From Candidatus Parcubacteria bacterium (GTDB lineage: Bacteria > Patescibacteriota > Minisyncoccia > Minisyncoccales > JAGLUP01): a stretch of DNA of 64,000 nt. The position numbers and the translations under genes were made by a program. This document shows positions 36,953 through 57,647 of the stretch, one piece after another. The notes under the pieces were generated by a model. The model was not told the DNA's origin and ran no database searches. It saw nothing but the letters and a program-made list of their open reading frames with translations. Every line of letters starts with the position of its first letter. Position 1 is the stretch's first letter. Location: positions 15,906 through 79,905 of the forward strand of contig JAGLUP010000002.1 of assembly GCA_023134715.1 (NCBI GenBank). Direction: 5' to 3'.

Positions 36953-38614
36953 ATGAAAAATTGGAGAATTAATCTTATTTTGGCTTTTATATTATTATTT
37001 GGAGCGGTTATTATTGGCCGCTTGTTTTATATCCAAATAGTAGACCACAACTACTACCTTGCTTTAGCCAAAGGACAGCATAAATTCTTAGAAGAAATTA
37101 GCGGCCGAAGAGGCGAAGTTTTTTTTCAAAATAAAACAGAAACATTAGCAATCAATAAAAATCAAGAACTAATTTTCATTTCCCCTAAAGAAATTGAAAA
37201 TCAAGAAGAAACAGCTGATAAGTTGGCTGAAATTCTTGGCTTAGAAAAAGATGTCATTTTAGAAAAAACTAAAAAAGATACTTTTTATGAATTGATAAAA
37301 AATAAGTTAAGCCCGGAAGAAATAGAGGATTTAAAAAAAATAAATTTAACAGGAGTTCATCTGCGACAAGTTCCAGGAAGATATTACACTCAAGGACTTT
37401 TGGCCGCGCATATAATAGGATTTTTGGGCGGAGACAAACAAGGTCAATACGGTATAGAGGGATACCATAATGACTTGCTAAAAGGAGAACAGGGTTTGCG
37501 AGAAAAAGAAAAAAGTCCATGGGGCTTTTCTTTTTTTCAAGAAAATTCTGCTCCAGCGCTAAAAGGAACAGACATTGTCTTGACTATTGATTATAATATC
37601 CAATTTAAAGCGGAAAAATTATTAAAACAAGCTAAAGAAAATTTAGATATTGAATCAGGAACAATTATAGTCATAGAGCCAGATACAGGAAAAATTCTTA
37701 CTATGGCTAATTTCCCGAGCTTTAATCCTAATGAATATTCAAAAATTGAAGATTTTGAAATTTTTCAAAATTCTGCCATTCAAAAACTTTATGAACCAGG
37801 CTCTGTTATGAAACCATTTACTATGGCAGCTGCTTTAAATGAAGGAAAAATAACTCCTGAGACAACTTATATTGATGAAGGAAAATTAACAATTAAAGAC
37901 CGAACTATTTATAATTATAACTTAAGTGTCTGGGGCGAAATGACAATGACAAATGTTTTGGAAAAATCAATCAATACTGGCGCGGTTTTTGCTGAAAGCC
38001 AAGTTGGGCATAATATTTTCTTAGATTATTTGGAAAAATTCGGCTTTTTTAATTCAACTGATATTGATTTACAAGGAGAGAGTTATTCGCAAAATAAAGA
38101 ATTGAAAAAGGGCTATGAAATAAATTTTGCTACTGCTTCTTATGGCCAAGGGATTGAAATGACGCCAATTCAGTTAGCCCGGGCTTTTTCCAGTATTGCC
38201 AACGGAGGAAAAATAATTAAACCTTATATAGTAGAAAATGAAAATCAGCCGCAGATTCTTAATAGGCCAATCTCTAAAAAAACCTCTTCTCAATTAACAG
38301 CTATGCTGGTAAGCGTAACAGAAAACGGTTTTGCTAAAAAAGCCAGGGTTCCCGGCTATTATATTGCCGGCAAAACCGGCACGGCCCAGGTTTCTTGGAG
38401 CGCCTTAGATGTTGACAAAGAGGGATATTCCGACAAAACAATCCAAAGTTTTATTGGATTTGCTCCTGCTTTTGACCCTCAATTTTTAATCTTGGTAAAA
38501 CTGGACAATCCCAAAACAAGAACAGCTGAATATTCAGCTATGCCTTGTTTTCAAAAATTAGCAAAATATATTATTGATTACTGGCAAATCCCCCCAGACC
38601 TTGAAAACTATTGA
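36953..38614 (+). CDS. ftsI: Penicillin-binding protein 2/3 class transpeptidase
   Basis: N-terminal TM helix; SxxK (GSVMKP), SxN (KSINTG) and KTG (GKTGTAQ) motifs. Confidence 0.85.
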   Translation: MKNWRINLILAFILLFGAVIIGRLFYIQIVDHNYYLALAKGQHKFLEEISGRRGEVFFQNKTETLAINKNQELIFISPKEIENQEETADKLAEILGLEKDVILEKTKKDTFYELIKNKLSPEEIEDLKKINLTGVHLRQVPGRYYTQGLLAAHIIGFLGGDKQGQYGIEGYHNDLLKGEQGLREKEKSPWGFSFFQENSAPALKGTDIVLTIDYNIQFKAEKLLKQAKENLDIESGTIIVIEPDTGKILTMANFPSFNPNEYSKIEDFEIFQNSAIQKLYEPGSVMKPFTMAAALNEGKITPETTYIDEGKLTIKDRTIYNYNLSVWGEMTMTNVLEKSINTGAVFAESQVGHNIFLDYLEKFGFFNSTDIDLQGESYSQNKELKKGYEINFATASYGQGIEMTPIQLARAFSSIANGGKIIKPYIVENENQPQILNRPISKKTSSQLTAMLVSVTENGFAKKARVPGYYIAGKTGTAQVSWSALDVDKEGYSDKTIQSFIGFAPAFDPQFLILVKLDNPKTRTAEYSAMPCFQKLAKYIIDYWQIPPDLENY

Positions 38615-38716
38615 CATTTTTGGACATTATGGTATAATTAAAAATGTTAGGAGAGAGAAACTGATTTTAGTATATTGACGAAAAACAGACCTCTCCTTTG
38701 AATGTCTGTTTTTCTT
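38611..38716 (+). promoter_or_regulatory. Promoter plus ~75-nt terminated leader/sRNA, copy 1
   Basis: TTGACA-16-TATAAT with TG extension. Next come GGAGAGAGAAACTGATTTTAGTATATTGACG and the terminator AAACAGAC-ctctcctttgaat-GTCTGTTTTT. Confidence 0.55.
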
Positions 38717-38723
38717 TATTGAT

Positions 38724-38790
38724 AGTTCTTTAAATAACAAAAAACCCTCCTTCGTTAAAAACTATGGAGGGCAAAGAAAGAAAGAGAAAA
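38724..38790 (+). repeat. Cassette 5' module (AGTTCTTTAAATAA, CCCTCC..GGAGGG hairpin, purine tract), copy C1
   Basis: Shared with 45940-46015 and 46643-46719. Confidence 0.75.
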
Positions 38791-38892
38791 AACAGAGAAG
38801 CCATCTCCGTTAAATATTCTCCTGCTGATTGAGGTTCTAAGTTTTGGACCTTAGTCAGCAGGAGGATAATTTATCCCTGCGAGGTGAAAAAG

Positions 38893-39336
38893 ATGAAAGA
38901 AAAAATGAAAACAATGATAGTGGCTATTTTAATAATAGTTACTATAGGAATTGTAGGAGCGGATGTATGGGACGCCTATTATAGCCATGTTGTCTATATT
39001 GAAGAGATAGAAGTCCACATAGCGGAAAACATAAACGTAGAGCTATTAAGTGGCGCAGATTCTGCTTTCGTATATCCTGGCAACATTTTATGCAGAACTT
39101 ACAAAATAACAAACAAAAAAGGGGTAGAACAAAAAATGATGGTTAATTTCGGAATATCAGAAGTGCCATATAGTTTATATACAGTAATTGAAGGAACAAC
39201 TGGACCTAATGAATTCTATGTTCCTCCAGGAGAAAAAATAGTGCAAGCATGCTGGAAACCTTTGGCTAATGCTCCTAGCGGGGATTATACTATGAATATA
39301 GTATTTTCCAGAATGAAGCACACCTTTCGCGGCTAA
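38893..39336 (+). CDS. Small membrane-anchored protein, cassette 1
   Basis: GAGGTGA SD 5 nt upstream of ATG 38893. The product has an N-terminal TM helix and a beta-rich body. Confidence 0.65.
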   Translation: MKEKMKTMIVAILIIVTIGIVGADVWDAYYSHVVYIEEIEVHIAENINVELLSGADSAFVYPGNILCRTYKITNKKGVEQKMMVNFGISEVPYSLYTVIEGTTGPNEFYVPPGEKIVQACWKPLANAPSGDYTMNIVFSRMKHTFRG

Positions 39337-39338
39337 AT

Positions 39339-39404
39339 AGTTTTTTTTCTTTCTTTTTTTCTTTTTTCGAGCTCATAAAACAAGGATTGTGGGTTGGAAA
39401 AAAG
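39339..39404 (+). repeat. Cassette 3' module (polypyrimidine tract plus conserved hairpin), copy a
   Basis: TTTTTTCTTTCTTTTTTT, then CTTTTTTCGAGCTCA-loop-TGGGTTGGAAAAAAG. Confidence 0.8.
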
Positions 39405-39461
39405 TGAATAAAAAATAAACAGCTCTTTTAATTAAATAAAATAAAAAAAGAGGGAAAGAAA

Positions 39462-39632
39462 ATGATTGCAATTGGTAAAACAAATTTAATAGGAGATATA
39501 CCTGGAAATCTTTCTAGGGTAATTTTAGGAAAAGATTTCTGCATGGAAAACGGTGCATTGTTAAAAATAAAAGAGGAGAGAAAGGAAACGTTGAAACGAA
39601 TTAAAAGAAATGTGGAACGTCAACGACCTTAA
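39462..39632 (+). CDS. 56-aa protein, cassette 1b
   Basis: MIAIGKTNLIGDIPGNLSRVILGKDFCMENGALLKIKEERKETLKRIKRNVERQRP. It is absent from the ORF track, and its stop is directly followed by a 3' module copy. Confidence 0.4.
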   Translation: MIAIGKTNLIGDIPGNLSRVILGKDFCMENGALLKIKEERKETLKRIKRNVERQRP

Positions 39633-39689
39633 CTCTTCTCTTTCTTCTTTTTTCGAGCTCATAAAACGGGTTTGTGGGTTGGAAAAAAG
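39633..39689 (+). repeat. Cassette 3' module, copy b
   Basis: CTCTTCTCTTTCTTC, then CTTTTTTCGAGCTCA-taaaacgggttt-GTGGGTTGGAAAAAAG. Confidence 0.8.
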
Positions 39690-39710
39690 TAGATAGAAGT
39701 AAACGAAAAA

Positions 39711-39739
39711 CTACACCGGACGGGTCGGTGTGGTTTTTT
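39711..39739 (+). terminator. Intrinsic terminator
   Basis: ACACCG-gacgggt-CGGTGT followed by GGTTTTTT. Confidence 0.65.
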
Positions 39740-39789
39740 GATTTTGTGATGGTTTTGTGTTAAATTTAATAATGAACTAATAAACACAA

Positions 39790-39861
39790 GGCCCTATCGT
39801 CTAACGGTCAGGACGCTAGATTCTCAATCTAGTAATAGGGGTTCGATTCCCCTTAGGGCTA
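39790..39861 (+). tRNA. tRNA-Glu (anticodon CUC)
   Basis: Cloverleaf: acceptor GGCCCTA/TAGGGCT, anticodon stem CTAGA/TCTAG with loop TTCTCAA, T-arm AGGGG-TTCGATT-CCCCT. Confidence 0.85.
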
Positions 39862-39907
39862 CATAAGAATAAATAAGTTCTTTTAAAATTTAAAAGAGGT
39901 GATAAAA

Positions 39908-40288
39908 ATGAAAACAACAGACGAGATTGGGGCAAAAAAGATAGAAGCAACGCACTTAATTAAGGTAGAACTAAAATTTGATAAAAATAAATGGACAGAA
40001 AAAAGTTTAAAAGAATTTGTAGATAAAAAAATGGAAGGGATAAATCCTCTATGTTTTCCTGATTTAGATTTATTTAGAGTTAAAGATGATACACTGAATG
40101 TCTGCCTATTTATTAGTTTTTTAGCCGGAGTAAAAACAACTGGAAAATTAGCCAAAGAATGGCTTGAGGGACATATAAAAGAACAAGGAATAAAAATAGA
40201 GAAAATAGAAGTAAAGGCAATGATGGATTTTATATCAAAAATACAAGGATTAAATTTCGAGTATAAATCTCGGAATTTTTTTTATTAA
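39908..40288 (+). CDS. Hypothetical protein
   Basis: AAAAGAGGTGATAAAA SD before ATG 39908 (the track gives GTG 39899). No motif recognised. Confidence 0.55.
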   Translation: MKTTDEIGAKKIEATHLIKVELKFDKNKWTEKSLKEFVDKKMEGINPLCFPDLDLFRVKDDTLNVCLFISFLAGVKTTGKLAKEWLEGHIKEQGIKIEKIEVKAMMDFISKIQGLNFEYKSRNFFY

Positions 40289-40347
40289 ATTTTTGGTTTT
40301 TGCAAAAAATAGAGAATAAGGTAGAATAAACCCAGTAGTAAAATAAT

Positions 40348-42954
40348 ATGGAAAAAGAAATTTCTTATCATGGTTTTTCTTCAGAAGAAATAATAAGACA
40401 ACTGGAAACAAATTCTGAGCAGGGTTTATCTGAAGAAGAAGTAAAATCGCGCCATAGGCAATATGGCAAAAATGCGCTTCCTAAAGAAAAACCTTTGTCT
40501 CAACTGAAAATACTTTTAGAACAAGTTCGCAGTCCTTTGATTTATATCTTAATTATTGCTGGACTTATTACTTTATCATTAAAAGATTATACTGACACTA
40601 TTGTTATTTTCGGCGCTGTCTTTTTAAACACAATCTTTGGTTATGTTCAGGAAAAAAAGGCCTCAGAGGCCCTAAGAAAGCTAAAGCAGATTTTAAAGAT
40701 TAAAATAATTGTTTTTCGGAGCGGAAAAGAAAAAATAATTTTTCAAGAAGAATTAGTACCCGGAGATATTATACTTTTAAGACCGGGCGACAAGGTTCCA
40801 GCTGACGCAAGATTAATTAATGAGCGCAATTTGAAAATAAACGAGGCGGCTCTTACCGGAGAATGGTGGACGGCTGAAAAAACCAGCAAACCGCTTCCAG
40901 AGAAAACAGCTTTAGCTGACAGAGACAATATGGTTTATATGGGTACGGTAGTAGAACAGGGACACGGAAAAGCCGTGGTTACTACTACCGGACTGCAAAC
41001 CGAGATTGGGAAAGTTGCTCAAATGCTTAGGGACGTAAAAGAGGAAAAAACTCCTTATCAAAAAAAATTAATTCGCTTTAGCAAGAAAATTGGGATTATT
41101 ATTGTTTTAATCTGTATGGGAATTTTTATTGAGGGAATGCTTACAGGCGGCGAATTTATAGAAATGTTCACTATCGCTATTGCTGTAGCCGTGTCTGTCA
41201 TTCCAGAAGGGCTTCCAATGGCAATGACAGTAATTTTGTCTTTAGGGATGACAAGAATCTTAAAAAAGAAAGGATTGGTAAGAAAATTAGCTTCGGCTGA
41301 AACGCTCGGCTCAACTTCAATAATTCTCACTGATAAAACAGGGACTTTAACCGAGGCAAAAATGAAAGTAGCCGGAATTTTTAATGCCGCAAAACAAATT
41401 GAAATCAAAGACGAATCTTATATCTTGGCTATAAAAATCGCTACATTGTGCAGTGAAGCGTTTATTGAAAATCCTGAAGAATCTTTGGAAAAATGGGTTG
41501 TCCAAGGGAGACCCACAGATAAAGCATTGCTTCTGGCAGGAATTCAAGCCGGACTTTCTAAAAATAAGCTTGAAAAGGAAGAGCCAAAAATTGACGAAAT
41601 TAGCTTTAGCCCTGTTTATAAATACTCGGCAGTCCTACATAAATTTTCTAAAAACAAAAATATATTGTATGTCTTGGGCGCTCCAGAAATAATTTTAGAA
41701 AAATCAAAATTATCTAAATCACAGCGAGAAAAGTTAATTAAAAAAGAAGAAAGCTTAAGTAATAAAGGATTAAGGGTTTTAGCTGTCGCTTATAAAAAAT
41801 GCGCGGCTGAAAACGAAATCAAGCCCGAAGATGTTGATAAATTAATTTTTGTTGGATTTATTGGACTGCATGATCCAATTAGAAAAGGCGCGAAAAAAGC
41901 GATTAAGGTTTGTCGTCAAGCCGGACTGAAAACAATCATTATTACCGGCGACCATAAATTAACCGCAAAATCAGTAGCTAAAGAATTAGGTATTTTTGTA
42001 AAAGAAAAAAATATTTTGGAAGGAAATGAGTTGAAAGATTTAAGTGACGATGAATTAGAAAATAAGATAAAAGACATTAAAATATACGCCAGAGTAGAGC
42101 CAAAACAAAAATTAAGAATTGTTAAGGCGTGGCAAAATAAGGGAGAAGTGGTGGCAATGACTGGAGACGGTATAAACGACGCTCCAGCGCTAAAACAAGC
42201 TGATATAGGAGTAGCTTTGGGAACAGGTACCGAGGTGGCAAAAGAAGCGTCTGATTTGGTTCTTTTAACTAATGATTTTGCTATTATCGTATCCGCAATT
42301 GAAGAGGGCAGAATAATTATTGATAATATCAGAAAAGTAATCACTTATTTGTTTTCTGGCGGTTTTACTGAAATAATTTTAATTGGAATCTCTCTTTTTT
42401 TCGGCTGGCCTCTGCCAATTTTAGCCGGCCAAATTTTATGGATAAATATTATTGAAGACGGACCGCTCGGCATCTGTCTGGCTTTTGAAAAAAAAGAAAA
42501 AGATGTAATGAAGCAAAAACTTCAAGGCCATGATATTCCTCTTTTGACTAAAGAAATGAAAAATCTAATTTTCATTATTGGATTTCTTAATTTCTTGCTT
42601 CTCTTAGCGCTGTTTTTTTGGCTTTTGAAATATTCAGGTTATGAAATTTCTCATATTAGATCAGTTATTTTTGCCGGCTTAACCATAGATTCAATTTTCT
42701 ATGTTTTTTCCTGTAAAAGCTTGAGACGCAATTTATGGCATATTAATCCTTTATCTAATAAATTCCTGATTGGCGCATGGCTATTTGGCATTATAATGCT
42801 GTTAACAGCGCTTTATCTTCCTCCTTTACAAACGCTTCTTAAAACAGTCCCTCTAAATCTTCTTGACTGGACATTACTCTTAGGATTGGGCATCTTAAAT
42901 ATAATTTTAATTGAAGCCGTAAAATGGCGCTTCATTACCAAAATAAAAAAATGA
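40348..42954 (+). CDS. P-type cation-transporting ATPase (type IIA, Ca2+-like)
   Basis: DKTGTLT phosphorylation motif, TGDGINDAPAL and PEGLP. Confidence 0.9.
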   Translation: MEKEISYHGFSSEEIIRQLETNSEQGLSEEEVKSRHRQYGKNALPKEKPLSQLKILLEQVRSPLIYILIIAGLITLSLKDYTDTIVIFGAVFLNTIFGYVQEKKASEALRKLKQILKIKIIVFRSGKEKIIFQEELVPGDIILLRPGDKVPADARLINERNLKINEAALTGEWWTAEKTSKPLPEKTALADRDNMVYMGTVVEQGHGKAVVTTTGLQTEIGKVAQMLRDVKEEKTPYQKKLIRFSKKIGIIIVLICMGIFIEGMLTGGEFIEMFTIAIAVAVSVIPEGLPMAMTVILSLGMTRILKKKGLVRKLASAETLGSTSIILTDKTGTLTEAKMKVAGIFNAAKQIEIKDESYILAIKIATLCSEAFIENPEESLEKWVVQGRPTDKALLLAGIQAGLSKNKLEKEEPKIDEISFSPVYKYSAVLHKFSKNKNILYVLGAPEIILEKSKLSKSQREKLIKKEESLSNKGLRVLAVAYKKCAAENEIKPEDVDKLIFVGFIGLHDPIRKGAKKAIKVCRQAGLKTIIITGDHKLTAKSVAKELGIFVKEKNILEGNELKDLSDDELENKIKDIKIYARVEPKQKLRIVKAWQNKGEVVAMTGDGINDAPALKQADIGVALGTGTEVAKEASDLVLLTNDFAIIVSAIEEGRIIIDNIRKVITYLFSGGFTEIILIGISLFFGWPLPILAGQILWINIIEDGPLGICLAFEKKEKDVMKQKLQGHDIPLLTKEMKNLIFIIGFLNFLLLLALFFWLLKYSGYEISHIRSVIFAGLTIDSIFYVFSCKSLRRNLWHINPLSNKFLIGAWLFGIIMLLTALYLPPLQTLLKTVPLNLLDWTLLLGLGILNIILIEAVKWRFITKIKK

Positions 42955-43415
42955 TTCCTGAATTAAAAATTTTCTTAATCGCTATGACTCCATTCGGAGA
43001 ACTAAGAGCGGCGATTCCAATTGCTCTTGAGATTTATAAGCTTCCAATTTGGTCAGCTTATTTTTGGTCGGTTTTAGGAAATTTAGTGCCTGTAATTTTA
43101 ATTTTAAAAGGATTAAAAATAACTTCAGAATACCTTTCTCACAGGATTTATTTTTTTAATAGATTTTTCGCCTGGCTTTTTGAAAGAACCAGAAATAATC
43201 ATGCTCAAAAAGTTAAAAAATGGAAAGAATGGGTATTGATAGCTTTAGTAGCTATTCCATTGCCTTTTACCGGAGCGTGGACTGGAAGTTTAGTTGCTTT
43301 TGTTTTTGGATTTCCTTTTAGAAAAGCGTTTCCTTTAATTGTTCTTGGCGTAATGATTGCTGGAATTATTGTAACTTTTACGACTTTGCTGATAACTAAA
43401 GGATTAACCCCTTGA
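42951..43415 (+). CDS. Small multidrug-export-like membrane protein (COG2426-type)
   Basis: MIPELKIFLIAMTPFGELRAAIPIAL. Its ATGA overlaps the ATPase stop. The product has four hydrophobic helices. Confidence 0.6.
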   Translation: MIPELKIFLIAMTPFGELRAAIPIALEIYKLPIWSAYFWSVLGNLVPVILILKGLKITSEYLSHRIYFFNRFFAWLFERTRNNHAQKVKKWKEWVLIALVAIPLPFTGAWTGSLVAFVFGFPFRKAFPLIVLGVMIAGIIVTFTTLLITKGLTP

Positions 43416-43518
43416 CATTTTTTCGCTTTATGATATAATTATAATTGTTAAGGAGAGAGAAACTGATTTTAGTATATTGACGAAAAACAGACCTCTCCCT
43501 TAGATGTCTGTTTTTCTT
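43412..43518 (+). promoter_or_regulatory. Promoter plus ~75-nt terminated leader/sRNA, copy 2
   Basis: TTGACA-16-TATAAT. The transcribed part is nearly identical to copy 1. Confidence 0.55.
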
Positions 43519-43668
43519 TATTGATAGTTCTTTAAGTAAAAAAAAGAAAGAGAAATGAAATCTTCAGGGCAGTAAATTGATAATTAATAATTAATTATTA
43601 GCTTAATGCTCTGAAGAAATTTGATAATGTCAGGTTTTCTGGTGATGGCAGATATATTGAGGTAAAAA

Positions 43669-44004
43669 ATGGATACAAAATGGAAAATATTATGGATAAT
43701 AGTGGTCTTGGGATTGCTTGCGATATACCCTGTTGCGCTTCATACAAGCGGGACCAGTAAGGAAATAACAGTGAAAGAAAAATGGGTGAAATACCACAGA
43801 GAAGATGCTAAATATTTATTCTCCGATGAAGAGAATAATGTATATAGTATTGAAGATTCTATTTGGCTTATAAAATTTGATGCGTCAGATAGATATGCAA
43901 AGATAACAGAAGGAAAGAGATATCTTATCAAAACATATGGCTGGAGAATTCGGATATTATCATCCTATTCAAATGCTATGGGAATTACTGAAATATCTAA
44001 CTAA
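43669..44004 (+). CDS. Small membrane-anchored protein, cassette 2
   Basis: GAGGTAAAAA before the ATG. The product has an N-terminal TM helix and is followed by a 3' module. Confidence 0.65.
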   Translation: MDTKWKILWIIVVLGLLAIYPVALHTSGTSKEITVKEKWVKYHREDAKYLFSDEENNVYSIEDSIWLIKFDASDRYAKITEGKRYLIKTYGWRIRILSSYSNAMGITEISN

Positions 44005-44007
44005 TAA

Positions 44008-44069
44008 TTTTTTCTTTCTTTTTTTCTTTTTTCGAGCTCATAAAACAATGTTTGTGGGTTGGAAAAAAG
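44008..44069 (+). repeat. Cassette 3' module, copy c
   Basis: Polypyrimidine tract plus CTTTTTTCGAGCTCA-taaaacaatgttt-GTGGGTTGGAAAAAAG. Confidence 0.8.
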
Positions 44070-44115
44070 AAAAATTAAATTGACTTTTTAGGATGAAAAT
44101 GTTAATTTGATAGTA

Positions 44116-45105
44116 ATGTCAGATATTGTTTTAATTTTAACAATTTTTTTAATTATTGCCGGAGGAATAGGATTTTTATTTTTTTTCTTTAAAAAAGAAA
44201 TTGAGAAACTTGGAGAGAAAAAAGATGATGATTCTTTGACAAAAATAATAGAAAAACAAATCACTCAAAGCACTAAGGTTATTGAAAATGTTACTGAAAA
44301 ATTAACCAAATTAGAAAATACGAATAAACAGGTAGTCGGTTTTGCGCAGCAGCTGCAGTCATTGGAAAATATTTTAAAAAATCCAAAGCAGAGAGGAATT
44401 TTAGGGGAGTATTACCTGGAAGAATTATTGAAAAATGTTTTCAGTCCTAATCAATACCAGATGCAATATGCGTTTAAAGACGGACAAATAGTTGACGCGG
44501 CAATTTTTATTAAAGATAAAATTCTTCCGATTGATTCAAAGTTTTCTTTAGAAAATTATAATAAAATTGTTGAAGAAAAAGACGCTTTCAGGCGAGAACA
44601 GCTGGAAAAAATATTTAAACAAGATTTAAAAAATAGAATAGACGAAACAGCTAAATATGTTAGACCAGAAGAGGGGACTCTTGATTTCGCGTTTATGTTT
44701 ATACCGGCCGAGGCGATTTATTATGATTTGTTAGTCAATAAAGTCGGAGCGGTTAAAAGCAATACACGGGACCTTGTTAATTACGCAGTAAGAGAAAAGC
44801 ATGTTCATATTGTTTCGCCAACATCTTTTTACGCTTATCTGCAAACAATTTTACAGGGATTGCGGGCTATGCAAATTGAAGAGTCAGCAAAAGAAATTCG
44901 CAAAGGAGTTGAAATGCTCGGACGGCATATAGTAAGTTATGAAGAATATATGCAAAAGCTGGGAAATAATCTCGGCACGACTGTAAACGCTTACAATAAA
45001 AGTTATAAAGAATTGAGTAAAATAGACAAAGATATAGCTAAAATTACTCAAGGTAAAAAAACAATTAAACCATTAGAATTAGAAAAACCAGAACAAAACT
45101 TATGA
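44116..45105 (+). CDS. rmuC: DNA recombination protein RmuC
   Basis: N-terminal TM helix and coiled coil. The nuclease-like core is DFAFMFIPAEAIYYDL. The start is set to ATG 44116. Confidence 0.8.
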   Translation: MSDIVLILTIFLIIAGGIGFLFFFFKKEIEKLGEKKDDDSLTKIIEKQITQSTKVIENVTEKLTKLENTNKQVVGFAQQLQSLENILKNPKQRGILGEYYLEELLKNVFSPNQYQMQYAFKDGQIVDAAIFIKDKILPIDSKFSLENYNKIVEEKDAFRREQLEKIFKQDLKNRIDETAKYVRPEEGTLDFAFMFIPAEAIYYDLLVNKVGAVKSNTRDLVNYAVREKHVHIVSPTSFYAYLQTILQGLRAMQIEESAKEIRKGVEMLGRHIVSYEEYMQKLGNNLGTTVNAYNKSYKELSKIDKDIAKITQGKKTIKPLELEKPEQNL

Positions 45106-45422
45106 GTTTAGCAGTAATTAGAACCGGCGGGAAGCAGTATTTGGTTTCCACGGGACAAAAACTAAAAATTGAGAAATTAGATATAGATGAGGGGAAAGAA
45201 GTAGAGTTTCCAGAGGTTTTGTTGTTGGAGAAAAATAAAAAACTGGAGATTGGAACTCCTTTTGTTAAGGGCGCAAAAGTTCTTGGAAAAATTTTAAAAC
45301 AGGCCAGAGCTAAAAAAGTAATCATTTTCAAATATAAAGCCAAAAAACGCTACAAGAAAAAAACAGGACACAGGCAATCCTTTACTGAAGTGGAGATAAC
45401 TAAGATAGAAAAAGAAAAGTAA
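45102..45422 (+). CDS. rplU: 50S ribosomal protein L21
   Basis: AVIRTGGKQYLVSTGQKLKIEKL..GHRQSFTEVEI. Confidence 0.9.
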   Translation: MSLAVIRTGGKQYLVSTGQKLKIEKLDIDEGKEVEFPEVLLLEKNKKLEIGTPFVKGAKVLGKILKQARAKKVIIFKYKAKKRYKKKTGHRQSFTEVEITKIEKEK

Positions 45423-45426
45423 AAAA

Positions 45427-45465
45427 AGGTTCAAATTCCGACGATCGCGCTAATTTGAACCTTTT
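45427..45465 (+). terminator. Intrinsic terminator after rplU
   Basis: AGGTTCAAATT..AATTTGAACCT followed by TTTT. Confidence 0.7.
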
Positions 45466-45511
45466 GAAAACTAAAATTATTGCAGACATTGCAAATATTT
45501 TCAAAAAACGC

Positions 45512-45617
45512 TTGACATTTTTTCATTATGTGGTATAATTAAAACATAAATGGAGAGAGAAATTTGTCATTAAATAACAAACGACTCTTCCATTTTTGGA
45601 GAGTCGTTTGTTATTTC
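45512..45617 (+). promoter_or_regulatory. Promoter plus terminated leader/sRNA, copy 3 (divergent)
   Basis: TTGACA-16-TATAAT, then GGAGAGAGAAATTTG and the hairpin AACAAACGACTCTTCC-attttt-GGAGAGTCGTTTGTT. Confidence 0.5.
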
Positions 45618-45655
45618 AGCTCTTTAGTTTCCAGCTCTTTTTTTAAAAAAAGAAA

Positions 45656-45793
45656 ATGAAAAAACCAACCACGGAAATAGAAGGAAATAAAAAACCAACC
45701 ACAACGACAGAAGCTATGGCAGAAACTATGATAGTTATTGCAGGAACTCCTGTACCCGCTAGTCAGGCAAAACAATATAGAGCAATATTCTAA
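45656..45793 (+). CDS. Possible 45-aa peptide
   Basis: MKKPTTEIEGNKKPTTTTEAMAETMIVIAGTPVPASQAKQYRAIF. The SD is weak, and a terminator follows. Confidence 0.25.
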   Translation: MKKPTTEIEGNKKPTTTTEAMAETMIVIAGTPVPASQAKQYRAIF

Positions 45794-45807
45794 ATTTTCT
45801 TTTTTAA

Positions 45808-45846
45808 GAGACGGTAAAACCAAATTTATTTGTGTTTTACCGTCTC
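45808..45846 (+). terminator. Intrinsic terminator-like hairpin
   Basis: GAGACGGTAAAAC..GTTTTACCGTCTC. Confidence 0.55.
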
Positions 45847-45939
45847 AACCTTATTTTCAATAGCAACGAGAGAATTCTTTTTAAACAAAATGCACACGTC
45901 AGGTCTGTGTAAATTTGAAAAGAGCTCTCTCCTTGTTAG

Positions 45940-46015
45940 AAATAAAAAAAACAGTTCTTTAAATAAAAAAACCCTCCTTCGTTAAAACTATGGAGGGCAA
46001 AGAAAGAAAGAGAAA
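45940..46015 (+). repeat. Cassette 5' module, copy C3
   Basis: AAATAAAAAAAACAGTTCTTTAAATAAAAAAACCCTCCTTCGTTAAAACTATGGAGGGCAAAGAAAGAAAGAGAAA. Confidence 0.8.
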
Positions 46016-46132
46016 TGAAATCTTCAGGGCAGTGAATTGATAATTAAACAATTAATTGTCAGTTTAATGCTCTGAAGAAATCTGATAATGTCAGATTTTC
46101 TGGTGACGGCAGATATATATTGAGGTGAAAGA

Positions 46133-46552
46133 ATGGATATTGGTCTTATTAGCAGTATGGCAATACTTTTTCTACTTGGAATGGTAGGATTGGCAAATGC
46201 GACACTTGCAGAAGAAAAAAATAGACGAGCTGTGTCCGCTGGAATTGGAATGATTGCGTGGCTTGCCCTTGGTGCCACAGCTACGACTCAAGTAATGGAT
46301 GCAGGTTCTCCAGCAGGGATTGATGAGCTAAAGATCGGTGGAGAATATCATGTCAATTATGTAGAGTATTCTTGCGCATCGATTGACTTGCTCCTTCAGG
46401 CAGTAGAAGAGGATGAAGAGAAGACAGAACCAATACATGTAAGGATAGAAAGATCAAGGAGACAAGACTACTTGAATCAACATGATATGGTTATTGTGAC
46501 GAACGAGAAAAATCTAAAAATTACCCGTCGTCATGATAACGCAATGGGCTAA
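46133..46552 (+). CDS. Small membrane protein, cassette 3
   Basis: GAGGTGAAAGA before the ATG. The product has two N-terminal hydrophobic helices and is followed by a 3' module. Confidence 0.65.
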   Translation: MDIGLISSMAILFLLGMVGLANATLAEEKNRRAVSAGIGMIAWLALGATATTQVMDAGSPAGIDELKIGGEYHVNYVEYSCASIDLLLQAVEEDEEKTEPIHVRIERSRRQDYLNQHDMVIVTNEKNLKITRRHDNAMG

Positions 46553-46554
46553 AT

Positions 46555-46635
46555 TTTTTCTTTCTTTTTTTCTTTTTTCGAGCTCAGAAAAATGTACAAG
46601 ACCCGACCTCGTACATTTTGTGGGTTGGAAAAAAG
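46555..46635 (+). repeat. Cassette 3' module, copy d (loop carries an extra nested hairpin)
   Basis: CTTTTTTCGAGCTCA..AAAATGTACAAG-acccgacc-TCGTACATTTT..GTGGGTTGGAAAAAAG. Confidence 0.8.
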
Positions 46636-46642
46636 CAAACAA

Positions 46643-46719
46643 AAATAAAAAAAACAGTTCTTTAAATAAAAAAACCCTCCTTCGTTAAAACTATGGAGGG
46701 CAAAGAAAGAAAGAGAAAA
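46643..46719 (+). repeat. Cassette 5' module, copy C4
   Basis: Identical core to 45940-46015. Confidence 0.8.
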
Positions 46720-46806
46720 CAACAGAGAAGCCATCCCGGGGGACACCCCGGTGGATATGAATCTTACTCTTCCGGCAAAGATTGGAAGAAAAAAGAGGTG
46801 AAAAAC

Positions 46807-46977
46807 ATGGATAGAAAAAATATATTGATTGTTATGATATTCCTGATAGTGGGGAGTTTAACGACAATCATTGCGTCGCTAATAAGCACAGGCACAGTGA
46901 ATAAAGAACTATTGGAAATTATATTTAATGTAGACGCGCTCATTCTCGTCTATGTTGGAATATTAAGCATTCATTAG
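46807..46977 (+). CDS. 56-aa two-TM protein, cassette 4
   Basis: GAGGTGAAAAAC before ATG 46807. The track start at 46693 lies inside the conserved 5' module and was not used. Confidence 0.5.
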   Translation: MDRKNILIVMIFLIVGSLTTIIASLISTGTVNKELLEIIFNVDALILVYVGILSIH

Positions 46978-47034
46978 TTTCTCTTTCTTTTTTTCTTTTT
47001 TCGAGTCCATAAATATTTGTGGGTTGGAAAAAAG
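46978..47034 (+). repeat. Cassette 3' module, copy e
   Basis: TTTCTCTTTCTTTTTTT, then CTTTTTTCGAGTCCA-taaatattt-GTGGGTTGGAAAAAAG. Confidence 0.8.
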
Positions 47035-47102
47035 AGGTTAGAGATGCTCTCGTCCTGCATCTTTGCTCTCTCCTAGACGTAGGATGGGAGCTTCTCTGAC
47101 CT
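47035..47102 (+). other. Long imperfect hairpin whose loop displays GCTCTCTCC
   Basis: AGGTTAGAGATGCTC pairs with GAGCTTCTCTGACCT, and GTCCTGCATCT pairs with AGACGTAGGAT. The loop is TTGCTCTCTCC. Confidence 0.4.
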
Positions 47103-47106
47103 TTTT

Positions 47107-47136
47107 AAAACAGCCCCGCTAAGCGGGGCTGTTTTT
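47107..47136. terminator. Bidirectional intrinsic terminator (ends recR on the minus strand)
   Basis: AAAACAGCCCCGC-taa-GCGGGGCTGTTTTT. Confidence 0.75.
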
Positions 47137-47150
47137 CATTCTCTTGTTTT

Positions 47151-47774
47151 TCATTCTCTTCTTTGGAGAGCGCTTTTAAGGGTTTCCTTATCAGCATATT
47201 CTAATTCCGCGCCAGTCGGCAAACCGCGGGCGAGGTGAGTAATTTTCCTGCCTAACGGCTTTAAAGCGCGCTCTAAATAAAGTATTGTCGCTTCACCTTC
47301 TGTGGTCGGATTTAAAGCTAAAATTATTTCTTTGAAATTAGCTTTTTTTATTCTCTGAATCAACTCCTTTATTCTTAATTTTTCAATATCTTGCTTTTTA
47401 AGGGTTGAAACCGTGCCTCCTAAAACAAAATAAAAACCTTTATAAGTTTTTGTTTTTTCAATTGAGATTAAATCAGTTTCTTTTTCTACTATGCAAAGCA
47501 GGGTCTTATCTCTTCTCGGGTCTAAACAAATCTCACAAAATTTCTGGTCTCCCTCATAAGAATTAAAGCAAAACGTACAAATTTTTATCGCTTTTTTTAA
47601 TTCTAAAATTGAATTAGTTAAATTCTCAACTTTCTCTACGGGAAGATGGATTAAATAAAAAACAAAGCGAGCTGCTGTGCGCGGTCCAATCGTGGGAAAT
47701 TTACTAAATTCATCAATAAGTTTCTGCTTTTTCATATTTTTCAATAGTTCGGAAACAAGCTCTTTGTTCGTCAA
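47151..47774 (-). CDS. recR: Recombination protein RecR
   Basis: FPTIGPRTAARF HhH motif, Cys4 Zn finger CTFC..CEIC and a Toprim region. The alternative start at 47735 fits the usual N-terminal length better. Confidence 0.85.
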   Translation of the reverse strand: MTNKELVSELLKNMKKQKLIDEFSKFPTIGPRTAARFVFYLIHLPVEKVENLTNSILELKKAIKICTFCFNSYEGDQKFCEICLDPRRDKTLLCIVEKETDLISIEKTKTYKGFYFVLGGTVSTLKKQDIEKLRIKELIQRIKKANFKEIILALNPTTEGEATILYLERALKPLGRKITHLARGLPTGAELEYADKETLKSALQRRE

Positions 47775-49089: not shown

Positions 49090-49223
49090 ATCTTTATCTT
49101 TCAGTATATCTAATCTTTAAAAAATTTCAACCCTTTACAAAAACTTAAAATCAAGTATGCTTAAATTAGTTCAATGAGAAGAGAATGCTCTTTAAGAACT
49201 GAAAATTAAAAGAGGTGATAAAA

Positions 49224-50495: not shown

Positions 50496-50575
50496 ATTGC
50501 TCTTTTTTTTTGATTTTAAATCACTCTATCTAAAATTTACCTTGCCAAACAAATGAGTCTGTGATAGTATTATTA

Positions 50576-50610
50576 CAGTAATTTGACAATTATATAATTA
50601 ATAATTACTG
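50576..50610. promoter_or_regulatory. Nested palindrome upstream of the second TFB-like gene
   Basis: CAGTAATT-tgac-AATTATATAATT-aat-AATTACTG. The inner 12-mer is a perfect palindrome. Confidence 0.35.
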
Positions 50611-50639
50611 ATGAATGAAAAATAAAAGAGGTGATAATA

Positions 50640-54410: not shown

Positions 54411-54466
54411 TGGTAGGACACCACCCTTTGAAGGTGGTTATCTAGGTTCGAGTCCTAGTCTCGCAG
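54396..54466 (+). tRNA. tRNA-Gln (anticodon UUG)
   Basis: Acceptor TGCGAGA/TCTCGCA (U1-A72), anticodon stem CCACC/GGTGG with loop CTTTGAA, T-arm CTAGG-TTCGAGT-CCTAG. Confidence 0.85.
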
Positions 54467-57594: not shown

Positions 57595-57647
57595 ATGTAA
57601 AATATTTGTTATAATACCATTAGATTACTAATCTAGTGGTATTTTTT

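What the first reader, a model, noticed from the sequence alone, without database searches (positions are those of the whole stretch)
38611..47106. Family of five unrelated small-protein genes, each packaged between the same conserved 5' and 3' untranslated modules
The cassettes are at 38724-39404, ~39405-39689, 43519-44069, 45940-46635 and 46643-47034. They encode proteins of 147, 56, 111, 139 and 56 aa with no visible similarity to each other; most have N-terminal TM helices. The flanks are shared.

The 5' module is AGTTCTTTAAATAA-A-run, then a CCCTCC-N14-GGAGGG hairpin containing a uORF start (ATGGAGGGCAAAGAAAG..), then the purine tract AAAGAAAGAAAGAGAAA. One of two leader types and a GAGGTGA SD follow.

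The 3' module starts right at the stop codon. It is a polypyrimidine tract (TTTCTTTCTTTTTTT, complementary to the 5' purine tract over 11-14 nt), followed by the hairpin CTTTTTTCGAGCTCA-loop-TGGGTTGGAAAAAAG. That hairpin uses two G-U pairs, which would be A-C mismatches on the other strand, so it reads as a sense-strand RNA structure. Copy e changes CT to TC opposite GG and keeps the pairing. Copy d tolerates a nested hairpin in the loop. The T-run precedes the hairpin rather than following it, so this is not a canonical terminator.

The cassettes are scattered between core genes (after ftsI, after the ATPase operon, after rplU) and two pairs are in tandem. Constant UTR modules around variable small ORFs suggest either a mobile or exchangeable cassette system, or a shared post-transcriptional control, stability or localisation signal. 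I do not recognise it as a described element.
Basis: partly seen in the sequence, partly recalled or inferred. Interest (0 to 1): 0.8.

Follow-up and report, generated by a model that had tools for sequence, protein, structure and literature searches.

The report
Shared mRNA chassis around swappable orphan genes
In this Parcubacteria genome and many other ultra-small (CPR) bacteria, unrelated orphan genes are each wrapped in the same conserved 5' and 3' untranslated modules, which are predicted to fold the mRNA into a closed panhandle with hairpins; closely related genomes carry different cargo at the same chromosomal sites, and I found no published description of the element.

Summary
All five 3' modules (pyrimidine tract plus hairpin) are real, lie on the + strand, and are the only such sites in 64 kb (CM hits of 46-57 bits; next best 17.5). 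The 5' modules are real too.

The same architecture occurs in about 85 metagenome contigs and a Saccharibacteria MAG, carrying about 66 different cargo ORFs, nearly all orphans.

Three structures covary:
- the 3' hairpin (10 of 15 pairs with changes on both sides, conserved G-U);
- a long leader hairpin (17 of 24 pairs);
- a cassette-specific long-range pairing between the 5' purine tract and the 3' pyrimidine tract of the same ORF (permutation p<=5e-5; present in the MFE fold of 11 of 12 full transcripts).

The pyrimidine tract starts about 5 nt after the stop codon.

Related genomes differ by whole cassettes. Homology breakpoints cluster in the conserved modules.

There is no Rfam match, no IMG/VR hit and no integron hallmark.

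Best reading: a modular mRNA-stability, processing and translation chassis whose conserved parts also act as recombination handles. It is closest to phage PeSL cassettes but is structurally distinct. The function is inferred, not shown.

The parts
38611..38638 (+). Sigma-70 promoter of unit A/B (TTGACA-16-TATAAT, with TG)
   Evidence: 12/12 consensus match, one of only three in 38.4-47.3 kb. Repeat family D5.
38646..38716 (+). Promoter-proximal leader: GGAGAGAG, then a terminator-like hairpin AAAAACAGAC..GUCUGUUUUU with a U tail
   Evidence: 95% identical copy at 43451-43545. Fold. Conserved in relatives L027 and L094.
38724..38737 (+). 5' motif AGTTCTTTAAATAA of cassette A
   Evidence: GTTCTTTNA is conserved in about 70 cassettes from other contigs.
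38745..38771 (+). CCCTCC..GGAGGG hairpin (specific to the window lineage)
   Evidence: -11.3 kcal/mol, z -2.6.
38773..38793 (+). Purine (R) tract of cassette A
   Evidence: Pairs with 39340-39360 in the MFE fold of the whole transcript (21/21 nt, P=0.98).
38818..38865 (+). Leader hairpin, type 1 (20 bp)
38893..39336 (+). Cargo ORF A, 147 aa, N-terminal TM helix, orphan
   Evidence: Only itself among 5.8 billion proteins. No Pfam family.
39340..39404 (+). 3' module A: pyrimidine (Y) tract plus hairpin CTTTTTTCGAGCTCA..TGGGTTGGAAAAAAG
   Evidence: (52.5 bits).
39420..39461 (+). Degenerate 5' module of cassette B (CAGCTCTTTTAATTAAATAA..AAAGAGGGAAAGAAA, which includes the SD)
   Evidence: families D8, D12.
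39462..39632 (+). Cargo ORF B, 56 aa
39633..39689 (+). 3' module B
   Evidence: 54.5 bits.
39704..39740 (+). Intrinsic terminator ending unit A/B
39874..40290 (+). Degenerate unit X: AAGTTCTTTTAAAA, SD, 126-aa ORF (39908-40288), terminator hairpin 40252-40278. No canonical 3' module.
   Evidence: The whole unit is absent in the syntenic relative L094.
43412..43439 (+). Sigma-70 promoter of cassette C
   Evidence: 12/12 match.
43448..43518 (+). Promoter-proximal leader with terminator-like hairpin (copy 2)
43526..43556 (+). 5' motif AGTTCTTTAAGTAA plus R tract AAAAAAAGAAAGAGAAA of cassette C (no CCCTCC hairpin)
   Evidence: 16/16 R nt paired to the Y tract in the MFE fold.
43561..43617 (+). Leader hairpin, type 2
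   Evidence: (D6, D9).
43669..44004 (+). Cargo ORF C, 111 aa, DUF1523 / phrog_301 'secreted protein'
44008..44069 (+). 3' module C
   Evidence: 53.4 bits. The whole unit, about 43410-44080, is absent in L094.
45512..45860 (+). Degenerate unit D': promoter (45512-45539), GGAGAGAG leader with a 20-bp terminator-like hairpin, CAGCTCTTT motifs, 45-aa ORF (45656-45793), Y-rich tract plus a different hairpin
   Evidence: z -6.1.
45953..46015 (+). 5' module of cassette D: motif, CCCTCC..GGAGGG hairpin, R tract
46020..46078 (+). Leader hairpin, type 2 (copy 2), followed by a small hairpin at 46079-46100
   Evidence: Differences from copy C keep the small downstream hairpin paired (U.G to U-A and U.G to C-G), read directly.
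46133..46552 (+). Cargo ORF D, 139 aa
   Evidence: Itself plus one 31%-identical relative among 1.84 billion representative proteins.
46554..46635 (+). 3' module D, with a nested hairpin in the loop
   Evidence: 46.2 bits. Similar loop insertions occur in L016, L026 and L079.
46656..46720 (+). 5' module of cassette E
46807..46977 (+). Cargo ORF E, 56 aa, TM helix
46978..47034 (+). 3' module E
   Evidence: 57.4 bits.
47107..47135 (+). Intrinsic terminator ending unit D'/D/E

Best explanation
Each unit is a self-contained expression cassette built on a conserved mRNA 'chassis' that is widespread in CPR/Patescibacteria.

**Layout.** The order is:
1. consensus sigma-70 promoter;
2. 5' UTR: GUUCUUURA motif, purine tract R, and a 20-27-bp leader hairpin with a conserved apex that in about half of the cassettes buries the Shine-Dalgarno;
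3. orphan ORF;
4. pyrimidine tract Y, starting about 5 nt after the stop codon;
5. conserved 16-bp hairpin;
6. a terminator or the next cassette.

**Proposed RNA-level action.**
- In the RNA, R pairs with the Y tract of the same cistron. Each cistron then closes into a panhandle, with the 3' hairpin and 5' motif left outside it.
- I infer that this dsRNA architecture sets the fate of the mRNA. It would act as a processing point, most simply for RNase III or a dedicated endonuclease that cuts arrays into monocistronic mRNAs with paired ends.
- It would also protect the mRNA against exonucleases.
- Because a terminating ribosome must melt the R-Y helix, the architecture would couple stability or re-initiation to translation.

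**Proposed DNA-level action.** The invariant parts (3' hairpin, 5' motif, promoter, terminator) supply short homologies. Recombination at these homologies inserts, deletes and swaps whole cassettes. R and Y therefore travel with their ORF.

**Shown.** The architecture, its spread, covariation of three structures, cassette-specific R-Y complementarity, cassette turnover, and breakpoint clustering.

**Inferred.** Transcription, processing, the nuclease involved, the link to translation, and the recombination pathway.
For: **Spread.** 92 metagenome stretches and 2 Saccharibacteria MAG contigs carry the hairpin directly after small ORFs and a Y tract. The 5' motif lies 300-1000 nt upstream on the same strand (113 on + against 46 on -).

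**3' hairpin.** 52 distinct sequences are 96% paired. 10 of 15 pairs change on both sides, and 0 of 500 shuffles reach this. G.U and U.G positions are conserved. The CM scores about 20 bits more on the sense strand.

**Leader hairpin.**
- 24 pairs, 17 with compensatory double changes, and conserved wobbles in the apex.
- 5' UTR MFE of -41 against -17 kcal/mol for control genes (p=9e-11).

**R-Y pairing.**
- Own-cassette duplex of -16.6 against -13.0 kcal/mol for other cassettes. Permutation p<=5e-5, and the result also holds without the window lineage.
- Junction-adjacent Y/R pairs are not specific (p=0.63).
- Cassette-specific extensions occur, such as GGGAAGTAAGA/TCTTACTTCCC in L062 and GGGAAAGATTTG/CAAATCTTTCCC in L053.
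- Orthologous cassettes keep the pairing through G-C to A-U and G.U changes.
- R-Y is in the MFE fold of 11 of 12 whole transcripts, at P 0.74-1.0 across 300-1000 nt.
- The Y core starts a median of 5 nt after the stop codon and ends 2 nt before the hairpin.

**Turnover.**

**Cargo.** About 60 of 66 have no Pfam family. Cargo A and D are orphans.

**Transcription signals.** Perfect promoters occur only in front of the units, and terminators only behind them.
Against: - There is no expression or end-mapping data, so every RNA-level role is inferred from covariation and thermodynamics.
- SD sequestration by the leader hairpin is seen in only about half of the cassettes. It does not differ on average from control genes (0.58 vs 0.51).
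- The G:U versus A:C bias in R-Y mismatches is modest (22 vs 10). The R/Y tracts alone therefore do not exclude a DNA inverted repeat.
- The loci were collected with an exact hairpin pattern, which inflates apparent sequence conservation.
- Many loci are near-duplicates from sister samples, so the breakpoint counts are not independent events (about 9 distinct ones).
- One of 12 folded transcripts (L053) does not form R-Y in the ensemble.
- The near-invariance of GUUCUUU and of the hairpin sequence is more than pairing requires. No binding factor was identified.
Confidence: 0.6

Rival explanations
1. An integron-like, site-specific cassette system. The conserved 3' hairpin would be a folded single-strand DNA recombination site, analogous to attC. 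A dedicated recombinase encoded elsewhere would recognise it and excise and insert cassettes. The RNA structures would then be secondary.
For: - Cassette indels have boundaries inside the hairpin (L051/L060).
- Several homology switches lie at the 5'-arm/loop boundary (L063/L009, L042/L077).
- L094 carries a half hairpin (loop plus 3' arm, 100% identical to window 46589-46633) fused directly to the ftsI stop codon.
- L047 has two copies of one hairpin flanking a hicAB pair.
- The hairpin has a conserved asymmetry and a conserved purine-purine mismatch.
- Internal cassettes lack promoters.
Against: - No tyrosine recombinase was seen among 51 window ORFs. The only recombinase is a large serine recombinase next to tRNA-Gln, 7 kb away.
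- There is no GTTRRRY core.
- Apparent switch points coincide with the ends of identical segments. This is what homologous recombination in short conserved blocks would give. They also occur before the hairpin, after it and at the 5' motif.
- This model does not explain cassette-specific R/Y covariation or the leader hairpin covariation with G-U pairs.
Confidence: 0.15
2. Selfish small repeats (REP/MITE-like) that have spread into 3' and 5' intergenic regions. The flanked ORFs would be incidental and the modules would have no role in their expression.
For: - The element is short, palindromic, multicopy and highly conserved in sequence across distant contigs.
- A 28-nt match occurs in an Oceanospirillaceae MAG without the rest of the architecture.
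- Truncated remnants exist.
Against: - All copies are co-oriented with the upstream ORF and sit 10-40 nt after its stop codon.
- 5' and 3' parts occur as ordered pairs around one ORF, with cassette-specific complementarity.
- No transposase is adjacent.
- Covariation preserves sense-strand G-U pairs.
- Modules are not found beside core genes in the window.
Confidence: 0.08
3. Ordinary strong expression signals. The units would simply share the lineage's consensus promoter, RBS context and terminator, with similarity maintained by selection for high expression. There would be no cassette exchange and no special RNA mechanism.
For: - The promoters are plain sigma-70 consensus and canonical terminators follow.
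- The RBS context AAAAGAGGTGATAAAAATG is shared with non-cassette genes such as the TFIIB-like genes.
Against: - Core genes in the same window lack all modules.
- The 3' hairpin is not terminator-shaped: the U run is 5' of the hairpin.
- Long-range R-Y covariation and 20-27-bp leader hairpins are not generic features.
- Near-identical modules occur in lineages whose core genes are only about 68-70% identical at the nucleotide level.
- Cassettes are present or absent between close relatives.
Confidence: 0.07
4. The 5' motif (CTTTAAATAA / CTTTGATAAAA) is an archaeal-style TATA/BRE promoter, read with the help of the TFIIB-like proteins encoded 2 kb away.
For: - Two TFIIB-like genes lie at 49215-51896. 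They are about 70% identical to Altiarchaeota TFB.
- A homologue sits directly upstream of a cassette in L030/L069/L081.
- The motif resembles TTTAWATA (from my own knowledge of archaeal promoters).
Against: - Spacing from the motif to the purine tract varies from 16 to 27 nt.
- A start about 25 nt downstream would remove R from the RNA in most lineages. That contradicts the R-Y covariation.
- First cassettes have a conserved sigma-70 promoter at a fixed distance upstream.
- No TBP or archaeal RNA polymerase is evident.
- Most cassette loci show no TFIIB-like gene nearby.
- The dnaB-adjacent region is a general insertion hot spot.
Confidence: 0.03

Closest known systems
PeSL (promoter-early stem-loop) cassettes of T4-type phages (PMC2839356, PMC4122927)
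   Same: - Small conserved regulatory motifs (a sigma-70-like promoter plus a stem-loop) flank unrelated ORFans.
- Close relatives differ by insertion, deletion or replacement of whole ORFan units, with crossovers inside the motifs.
- The motifs serve both expression and recombination.
   Different: - The host is a CPR bacterial chromosome, not a phage (0 IMG/VR hits).
- Internal junctions of arrays have no promoter.
- The 3' hairpin is not terminator-shaped.
- There are additional covarying RNA structures: the leader hairpin and a cassette-specific 5'-3' panhandle.
- There is no sequence similarity to PeSLs, and mini-circles were not tested.
Integron gene cassettes with attC
   Same: - Arrays of unrelated, mostly promoterless small ORFs lie behind one promoter.
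- Each ORF is followed by an imperfect palindrome that is conserved in structure.
- Cassette indels are bounded within that palindrome.
   Different: - No IntI and no GTTRRRY/RYYYAAC cores.
- The palindrome is strongly conserved in sequence.
- Cassettes also carry a conserved 5' module, and single cassettes carry their own promoter and terminator.
- Units are scattered between core genes rather than held in one platform.
icaR-type 5'UTR-3'UTR base pairing in Staphylococcus aureus (PMC3868564)
   Same: A C/U-rich 3'-UTR tract pairs with a purine-rich 5'-UTR tract of the same mRNA. In icaR this blocks translation and creates an RNase III substrate.
   Different: - icaR is one gene. Here the pairing is a family-wide feature of dozens of unrelated genes, with covarying partners.
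- The purine tract is usually 60-100 nt upstream of the real SD. It overlaps the SD only in unit B.
- The Y tract abuts the stop codon.
REP/BIME extragenic palindromes
   Same: About 35-40-nt imperfect palindromes are conserved in sequence, transcribed at the 3' ends of genes, present in many copies, and able to stabilise upstream mRNA (from my own knowledge).
   Different: - Strict co-orientation with the upstream ORF.
- Obligatory partnership with a Y tract and a 5' module.
- No RAYT gene seen.
- Restricted to accessory orphan genes.
RNase III processing stems flanking rRNAs and phage T7 early cistrons; hok mRNA fold-back inhibition
   Same: Sequences 5' and 3' of a functional unit pair over a long distance and enclose it. 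In the known cases this directs processing or keeps the mRNA inert (from my own knowledge).
   Different: The units enclosed here are protein-coding orphan genes of many kinds. No nuclease, antisense RNA or toxin family is associated.

Membership tests
Integron | Adjacent IntI tyrosine recombinase with attI | tested here: not met
   Pfam scan of 51 window ORFs of at least 110 aa shows no Phage_integrase hit. Only a large serine recombinase is present, at 54455-55957. Caveat: one list was cut at 25 of 48 families, so hits weaker than about 1e-13 would be hidden.
Integron | attC with R''/L''-L'/R' boxes and GTTRRRY / RYYYAAC cores at cassette boundaries | tested here: not met
   The junction sequence is (A)GTTCTTTRA, with pyrimidines where RRR is required. 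Hairpin arms are CGAGCCCA/TGGGTTGG.
Integron | Promoterless cassettes in one array behind a common promoter | tested here: inconclusive
   Internal cassettes (B, E, and L042 cassettes 2 and 3) lack promoters. However, many units are single cassettes with their own promoter and terminator, scattered between core genes.
PeSL regulatory cassettes | Composite sigma-70 promoter plus stem-loop terminator between ORFans | tested here: inconclusive
   Promoter and hairpin are both present and conserved, but not as one composite motif at every junction. The 3' hairpin lacks a 3' U tail.
PeSL regulatory cassettes | Located in hyperplastic regions of T4-type phage genomes | tested here: not met
   Flanks are bacterial core genes (ftsI, rmuC, rplU, recR, dnaB). 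There are 0 hits in IMG/VR.
PeSL regulatory cassettes | Indels and replacements of ORFans with crossovers inside the motifs | tested here: met
PeSL regulatory cassettes | Circular excision products (mini-circles) | not testable with these tools
   Needs inverse PCR or read-level data.
REP/BIME | Extragenic imperfect palindromes in both orientations, often clustered, with a RAYT transposase in the genome | tested here: not met
   All copies are co-oriented with the upstream ORF. No transposase family appears in the window scan.
Type I toxin-antitoxin (hok/sok-like) | One family of small hydrophobic toxins plus an antisense RNA | tested here: not met
   The 66 cargo proteins are unrelated and mostly soluble, ranging from 30 to 452 aa. 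No consensus (12/12) promoter lies on the minus strand of the region.
Any Rfam 15 family | Covariance-model match at or near the gathering score | tested here: not met
   Only tRNAs pass. E-value searches of 38500-47300 and of nine loci give only chance-level hits.
icaR-type UTR pairing | 3'-UTR motif pairs with the SD region and RNase III cleaves the duplex | tested here: inconclusive
   Pairing is supported. The 5' partner is the SD only in unit B. Cleavage is not testable here.

The most novel reading that the evidence does not exclude
A CPR-wide, dedicated cassette system for orphan genes. The conserved 3' hairpin (with the 5' motif) would be recognised by an unidentified specific factor, and would serve two roles. 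It would be the RNA processing site that releases each cistron as a self-closed panhandle mRNA. It would also be the DNA recombination site at which cassettes are captured and exchanged. This would be a functional analogue of integrons with a different chemistry and an RNA-level layer.
Probability: 0.2. Interest if true: 0.9.

Novelty: new variant of a known kind. Interest (0 to 1): 0.75.

Why it matters
CPR/Patescibacteria have tiny genomes, yet they carry a fast-turning pool of orphan genes of unknown function.

- **A handle on the accessory genes.** The modular chassis marks exactly those genes. The 3' hairpin model or the 5' motif can therefore be used to pull the accessory orphan repertoire out of metagenomes and to follow its exchange.
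- **A testable family-wide case of 5'-3' UTR pairing.** In bacteria this kind of pairing is known from single genes such as icaR. Here natural covariation across dozens of cargos points to selection on it.
- **A link between regulation and genome plasticity.** If the conserved parts also drive recombination, this extends to cellular genomes the PeSL idea that regulatory motifs double as shuffling sites.
- **A possible expression tool.** The modules may also be useful as portable expression and stability parts for organisms that are very hard to manipulate.

Tried and rejected
**Searches that found nothing relevant.**
- Rfam at gathering and at E-value thresholds, on the window and on nine loci.
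- IMG/VR scan for the hairpin: 0 hits, so there is no support for a phage origin.
- Eight literature searches (CPR plus cassettes, structured RNA, TFIIB, repeats). None found a description of the element. They did retrieve the PeSL and icaR papers used for comparison.

**Attempts to reach more of the source genome.**
- Exact-protein look-ups either returned only 1-2 kb Logan contigs or found no record. The rest of the 224-kb source contig could not be read.

**Ideas tested and dropped.**
- Pairing of the Y tract of one cassette with the R tract of the next, as an intercistronic stem. There is no specificity (p=0.63).
- The leader hairpin as a universal SD-sequestering switch. This holds for only about half of the cassettes.
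- A T7-like or archaeal-type promoter reading of GTTCTTT..TATAGGGGG. The spacing varies from 16 to 27 nt, and the idea conflicts with R-Y covariation.
- A mini-ORF reading of GTT-CTT-TGA/TAA. There is no start codon.
- Type I toxin-antitoxin. The cargo is too diverse.

**Measurements discarded or uninformative.**
- An RNAduplex measurement of Y-start position with a long R window over-extended into coding sequence. It was replaced by core matching.
- A search for a recurrent neighbouring gene that could be the trans-acting factor. Only core genes and the TFIIB-like gene recur, the latter in two lineages.

Full report
**1. What is in the window**

The 3' module is a pyrimidine tract followed by the hairpin CTTTTTTCGAGCTCA-loop-TGGGTTGGAAAAAAG. 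It occurs five times, always on the + strand and always just after a small ORF: 39343-39404, 39629-39690, 44008-44069, 46554-46635 and 46977-47034. A covariance model built later from 52 hairpins of other contigs and the window finds exactly these five sites in 64 kb. They score 46-57 bits. The same sites score about 20 bits lower on the other strand, and the next best hit is 17.5 bits. The module is therefore not generic intergenic sequence.

The 5' module has four parts: AGTTCTTTAAATAA, an A run, the CCCTCC..GGAGGG hairpin, and AAAGAAAGAAAGAGAAA. It is complete at 38724, 45953 and 46656. It lacks the small hairpin in unit C (43526) and is degenerate in unit B.

The five proteins are unrelated. 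Only C has a family (DUF1523 / phrog_301). Cargo A has no relative other than itself among 5.8 billion proteins. Cargo D has one 31%-identical relative among 1.84 billion representatives.

**2.

The only three perfect (12/12, TG-extended) sigma-70 promoters of the region lie at 38611, 43412 and 45512. Each sits in front of a unit. Each is followed by a leader that starts with GGAGAGAG and contains a terminator-like hairpin with a U tail.

Canonical terminators close the units at 39704-39740 and 47107-47135. The transcription units are therefore P-A-B-T, P-C (running on into rmuC-rplU) and P-D'-D-E-T.

Two degenerate units exist:
- X lies after tRNA-Glu (39874-40290), with AAGTTCTTTTAAAA, an SD and a 126-aa ORF.
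- D' (45512-45860) has a 45-aa ORF.

The source is a Candidatus Parcubacteria bacterium contig of 224 kb. The neighbours are bacterial core genes.

**3. The same architecture elsewhere**

An exact-pattern scan for the hairpin found two contigs of a Saccharibacteria MAG and 92 stretches in sediment and groundwater metagenomes. About 85 of these show the full context: stop codon, Y tract (for example CCTCTTCCCCCTTTTT), then the hairpin TTTTCGAGCCCATAAATATTTGTGGGTTGGAAAAA.

What follows the hairpin falls into three classes:
- a conserved terminator (ACGCAGGAACTGTCTGTAATCAGGCAGTTTTTGC), in at least 34 of 91 distinct modules;
- the next cassette's 5' module (AAGGAGTA-GTTCTTTGAYAAAA-TATAGGGGGAAGAA), in about 24;
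- another terminator.

First cassettes are preceded by a conserved consensus promoter at a fixed distance.

After the purine tract comes a very stable 20-27-bp leader hairpin. It has two main types, each with a conserved apex.

Sixty-six distinct cargo ORFs (median about 113 aa) are unrelated to each other. About 60 of them have no Pfam family. Flanks include core genes and defence islands. There are no hits in IMG/VR and no Rfam family for any module.

**4. RNA structures**

*3' hairpin.* On 52 distinct sequences, 96% of cells are paired. Ten of 15 pairs show changes on both sides, and no shuffle of 500 reaches the observed values. Two positions are kept as G.U/U.G wobbles that alternate with G-C/C-G. 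These would be A-C mismatches on the other strand, in line with the 20-bit strand difference of the model.

*Leader hairpin, type II.* It has 24 pairs, 17 of them with compensatory double changes. The lower stem is hypervariable but always paired. The apex is conserved and carries three conserved wobbles. Cassette 5' UTRs fold far more stably than those of control genes (-41 vs -17 kcal/mol, p=9e-11). The SD is buried in only about half of them.

*Long-range pairing.* The purine tract R pairs best with the pyrimidine tract Y of its own cassette.
- Own-cassette duplexes average -16.6 kcal/mol, against -13.0 for other cassettes (permutation p<=5e-5). This also holds when the A/U-rich window lineage is left out.
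- The Y tract of one cassette and the R tract of the next show no specificity (p=0.63).
- Many cassettes have private extensions of the complementarity (L062, L053, L019, L013).
- Orthologous cassettes keep the pairing through G-C to A-U and G.U substitutions.
- Folding whole transcripts of 391-1094 nt puts R-Y in the minimum-energy structure in 11 of 12 cases. Pairing probability is 0.74-1.0, and this includes all four window cassettes tested.

The Y core starts a median of 5 nt after the stop codon (interquartile range 1-11). It ends 2 nt before the hairpin. A terminating ribosome would therefore have to open the helix.

The mismatch spectrum in R-Y (G:U 22, A:C 10) favours RNA only mildly.

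**5. Cassette turnover**

L094 is a syntenic relative of the window (82-88% nt identity over ftsI, tRNA-Glu, the P-type ATPase and rmuC). It differs in four ways:
- It lacks cassette C. The empty site reads ...ATAAGTAAATTGACTTTTTAG.
- It lacks unit X.
- Between ftsI and tRNA-Glu it has a HEPN/nucleotidyltransferase pair plus a single cassette with a 30-aa ORF. The window has A+B at that position.
- It carries a half hairpin directly after the ftsI stop codon.

L060 has exactly one extra cassette compared with L051. The boundaries fall inside the 3' hairpin: the shared 5' arm is followed by different loops and 3' arms.

Across all loci, 24 of 168 ends of high-identity alignments lie within -40..+80 nt of a 3' hairpin, against about 3% expected. 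These represent about nine distinct events. The switches occur at the hairpin start, at the arm/loop boundary, in the 3' arm, just after the hairpin, or at the 5' motif.

The comEC-nrdG locus and the region next to dnaB carry different cargo in related genomes.

This pattern is what recombination in short conserved blocks would produce. It does not require a site-specific enzyme, but it does not exclude one either.

**6. Interpretation**

The evidence supports a conserved, modular mRNA chassis for accessory orphan genes in CPR bacteria. Each cistron closes into a panhandle (R-Y). A long leader hairpin sits inside it. A conserved hairpin and the GUUCUUURA motif sit outside it, in the spacer.

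My most likely mechanism is post-transcriptional, and it has three elements:
- definition and protection of mRNA ends;
- processing of arrays at double-stranded elements, with RNase III as the simplest candidate (from general knowledge of rRNA, T7 and icaR processing);
- a link to translation, because of the stop-codon/Y-tract juxtaposition.

At the DNA level the same conserved blocks act as recombination handles. This explains why R and Y, which lie inside the exchanged unit, are cassette-specific, while the hairpin and the 5' motif are nearly invariant.

None of this was tested experimentally. The strong sequence conservation of the hairpin and motif suggests a specific binding factor, which I could not identify.

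**7. Comparison with known systems**

- *PeSL cassettes of T4-type phages* are closest in logic (PMC2839356, PMC4122927). They are conserved regulatory motifs around ORFans, with indels by recombination in the motifs. The present element differs in host, in sequence, in the shape of the hairpin and in its covarying RNA structures.
- *Integrons.* It shares with them arrays of promoterless cassettes and a boundary within a palindrome. It lacks IntI and the core sites.
- *icaR.* It shares 5'-3' UTR pairing (PMC3868564), here as a family-wide, covarying feature.
- *REP elements and type I toxin-antitoxin systems* are rejected on orientation and on cargo diversity.

I class it as a new variant of a known kind (mobile regulatory cassettes). 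The chance that it is a dedicated system of its own is not negligible.

**8. Limits**

- Loci were collected with an exact pattern, which biases the sample towards the commonest hairpin.
- Many loci are near-duplicates from related samples.
- Taxonomic labels rest on two MAG names.
- The rest of the source genome could not be read.
- The literature check is limited to the open-access library.

Noticed in passing
window 49215-50495 and 50631-51896 (+): Two paralogous genes (69% identical, 426 and 421 aa) encode a TFIIB zinc ribbon plus TFIIB cyclin repeats (PF08271, PF00382, E 5e-40). They lie inside an otherwise bacterial Parcubacteria contig, between dnaB and holB-like genes. They are about 70% identical to Altiarchaeota TFB and carry an extra C-terminal segment of about 110 aa. 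A 35-38% identical homologue sits in the same synteny block, directly upstream of a cassette, in L030/L069/L081. This may be archaeon-to-CPR gene transfer. A link to the cassettes is unproven.
   Followed up: partly
window 38646-38716, 43448-43518, 45548-45617 (+): Each cassette promoter is followed within about 10 nt by a leader. It starts GGAGAGAG and ends in a terminator-like hairpin with a U tail, and the hairpin loop or stem carries CUCUCC complementary to the 5' end. This could be an attenuator or a short RNA in its own right. It is conserved in relatives L027 and L094 but absent from the G-rich lineages.
   Followed up: partly
window 54396-55957 and 57636-58838: A large serine recombinase (Resolvase + Recombinase + Zn ribbon, 500 aa, minus strand) abuts tRNA-Gln. 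A Dam-type methyltransferase and several unannotated ORFs follow. This looks like an integrated element at the tRNA.
   Followed up: no
L094 300-1120 (oriented as the window): In the syntenic relative, the ftsI stop codon is fused to a half 3' hairpin: loop with nested hairpin plus 3' arm, 100% identical to window 46589-46633. A HEPN/nucleotidyltransferase pair follows, and only then the cassette promoter.
   Followed up: partly
L047 1-830 (oriented): A hicA/hicB pair on the opposite strand occupies the cargo position of a cassette skeleton. It lies between a 5' motif and a 3' hairpin, with a near-identical copy (one base differs) of the same long-loop hairpin upstream. This could be cargo replacement, or insertion with duplication of the hairpin.
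   Followed up: no
L005 50-120, L023 5585-5625, L042 1580-1612, L082 2840-2875 and others: An optional second hairpin module, GCCCTGAACC-loop-GGTTCAGGG(T)AAAGAG, lies between the 3' hairpin and the next 5' motif or terminator. Its variants are compensatory (GCCTCGAAC/GTTCGAGG, GCCCCAGAAC/GTTCGGGGC).
   Followed up: no
L001 / L006 (Oceanospirillaceae MAG contig, 101,579 bp), L001 6995-7027 (-): A 28-nt match to both hairpin arms (CTTTTTCGAGCCCA..TGGGTTGGAAAAAG) follows a 91-aa ORF in a GC-rich gammaproteobacterial contig. The 5' module is absent. It may be transfer, a chimeric contig or chance.
   Followed up: no
many loci, e.g. L002 6227-6262; 5' motif of every cassette: AGTTCTT of the 5' motif is the exact complement of AAGAACT/AGGAACT, which lies immediately 5' of the conserved terminator hairpin and overlaps it. 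The two could extend the panhandle or compete with the terminator. Both are invariant, so no covariation test is possible. This complement is absent from the window copies.
   Followed up: no
window 46693-46977; L027 1716-1817: In unit E, the ATG inside the CCCTCC..GGAGGG hairpin is in frame with the 56-aa ORF, giving a 94-aa reading frame. In units A and D the same ATG opens reading frames of only 22 and 15 codons. In L027 the tiny cargo ORF has no stop before the Y tract. It reads through the Y tract to a TAA in the hairpin loop.
   Followed up: no
window 33376-33729 and 33859-34263: The two halves of a NIF3 (DUF34) protein are encoded by two separate ORFs 130 nt apart. This may be a split or disrupted gene.
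   Followed up: no
window 47.1-49.1 kb; L030, L038, L064, L076: Cassettes lie next to the recR-dnaB block in at least five lineages, on one side or the other. This looks like a recurrent insertion hot spot.
   Followed up: partly
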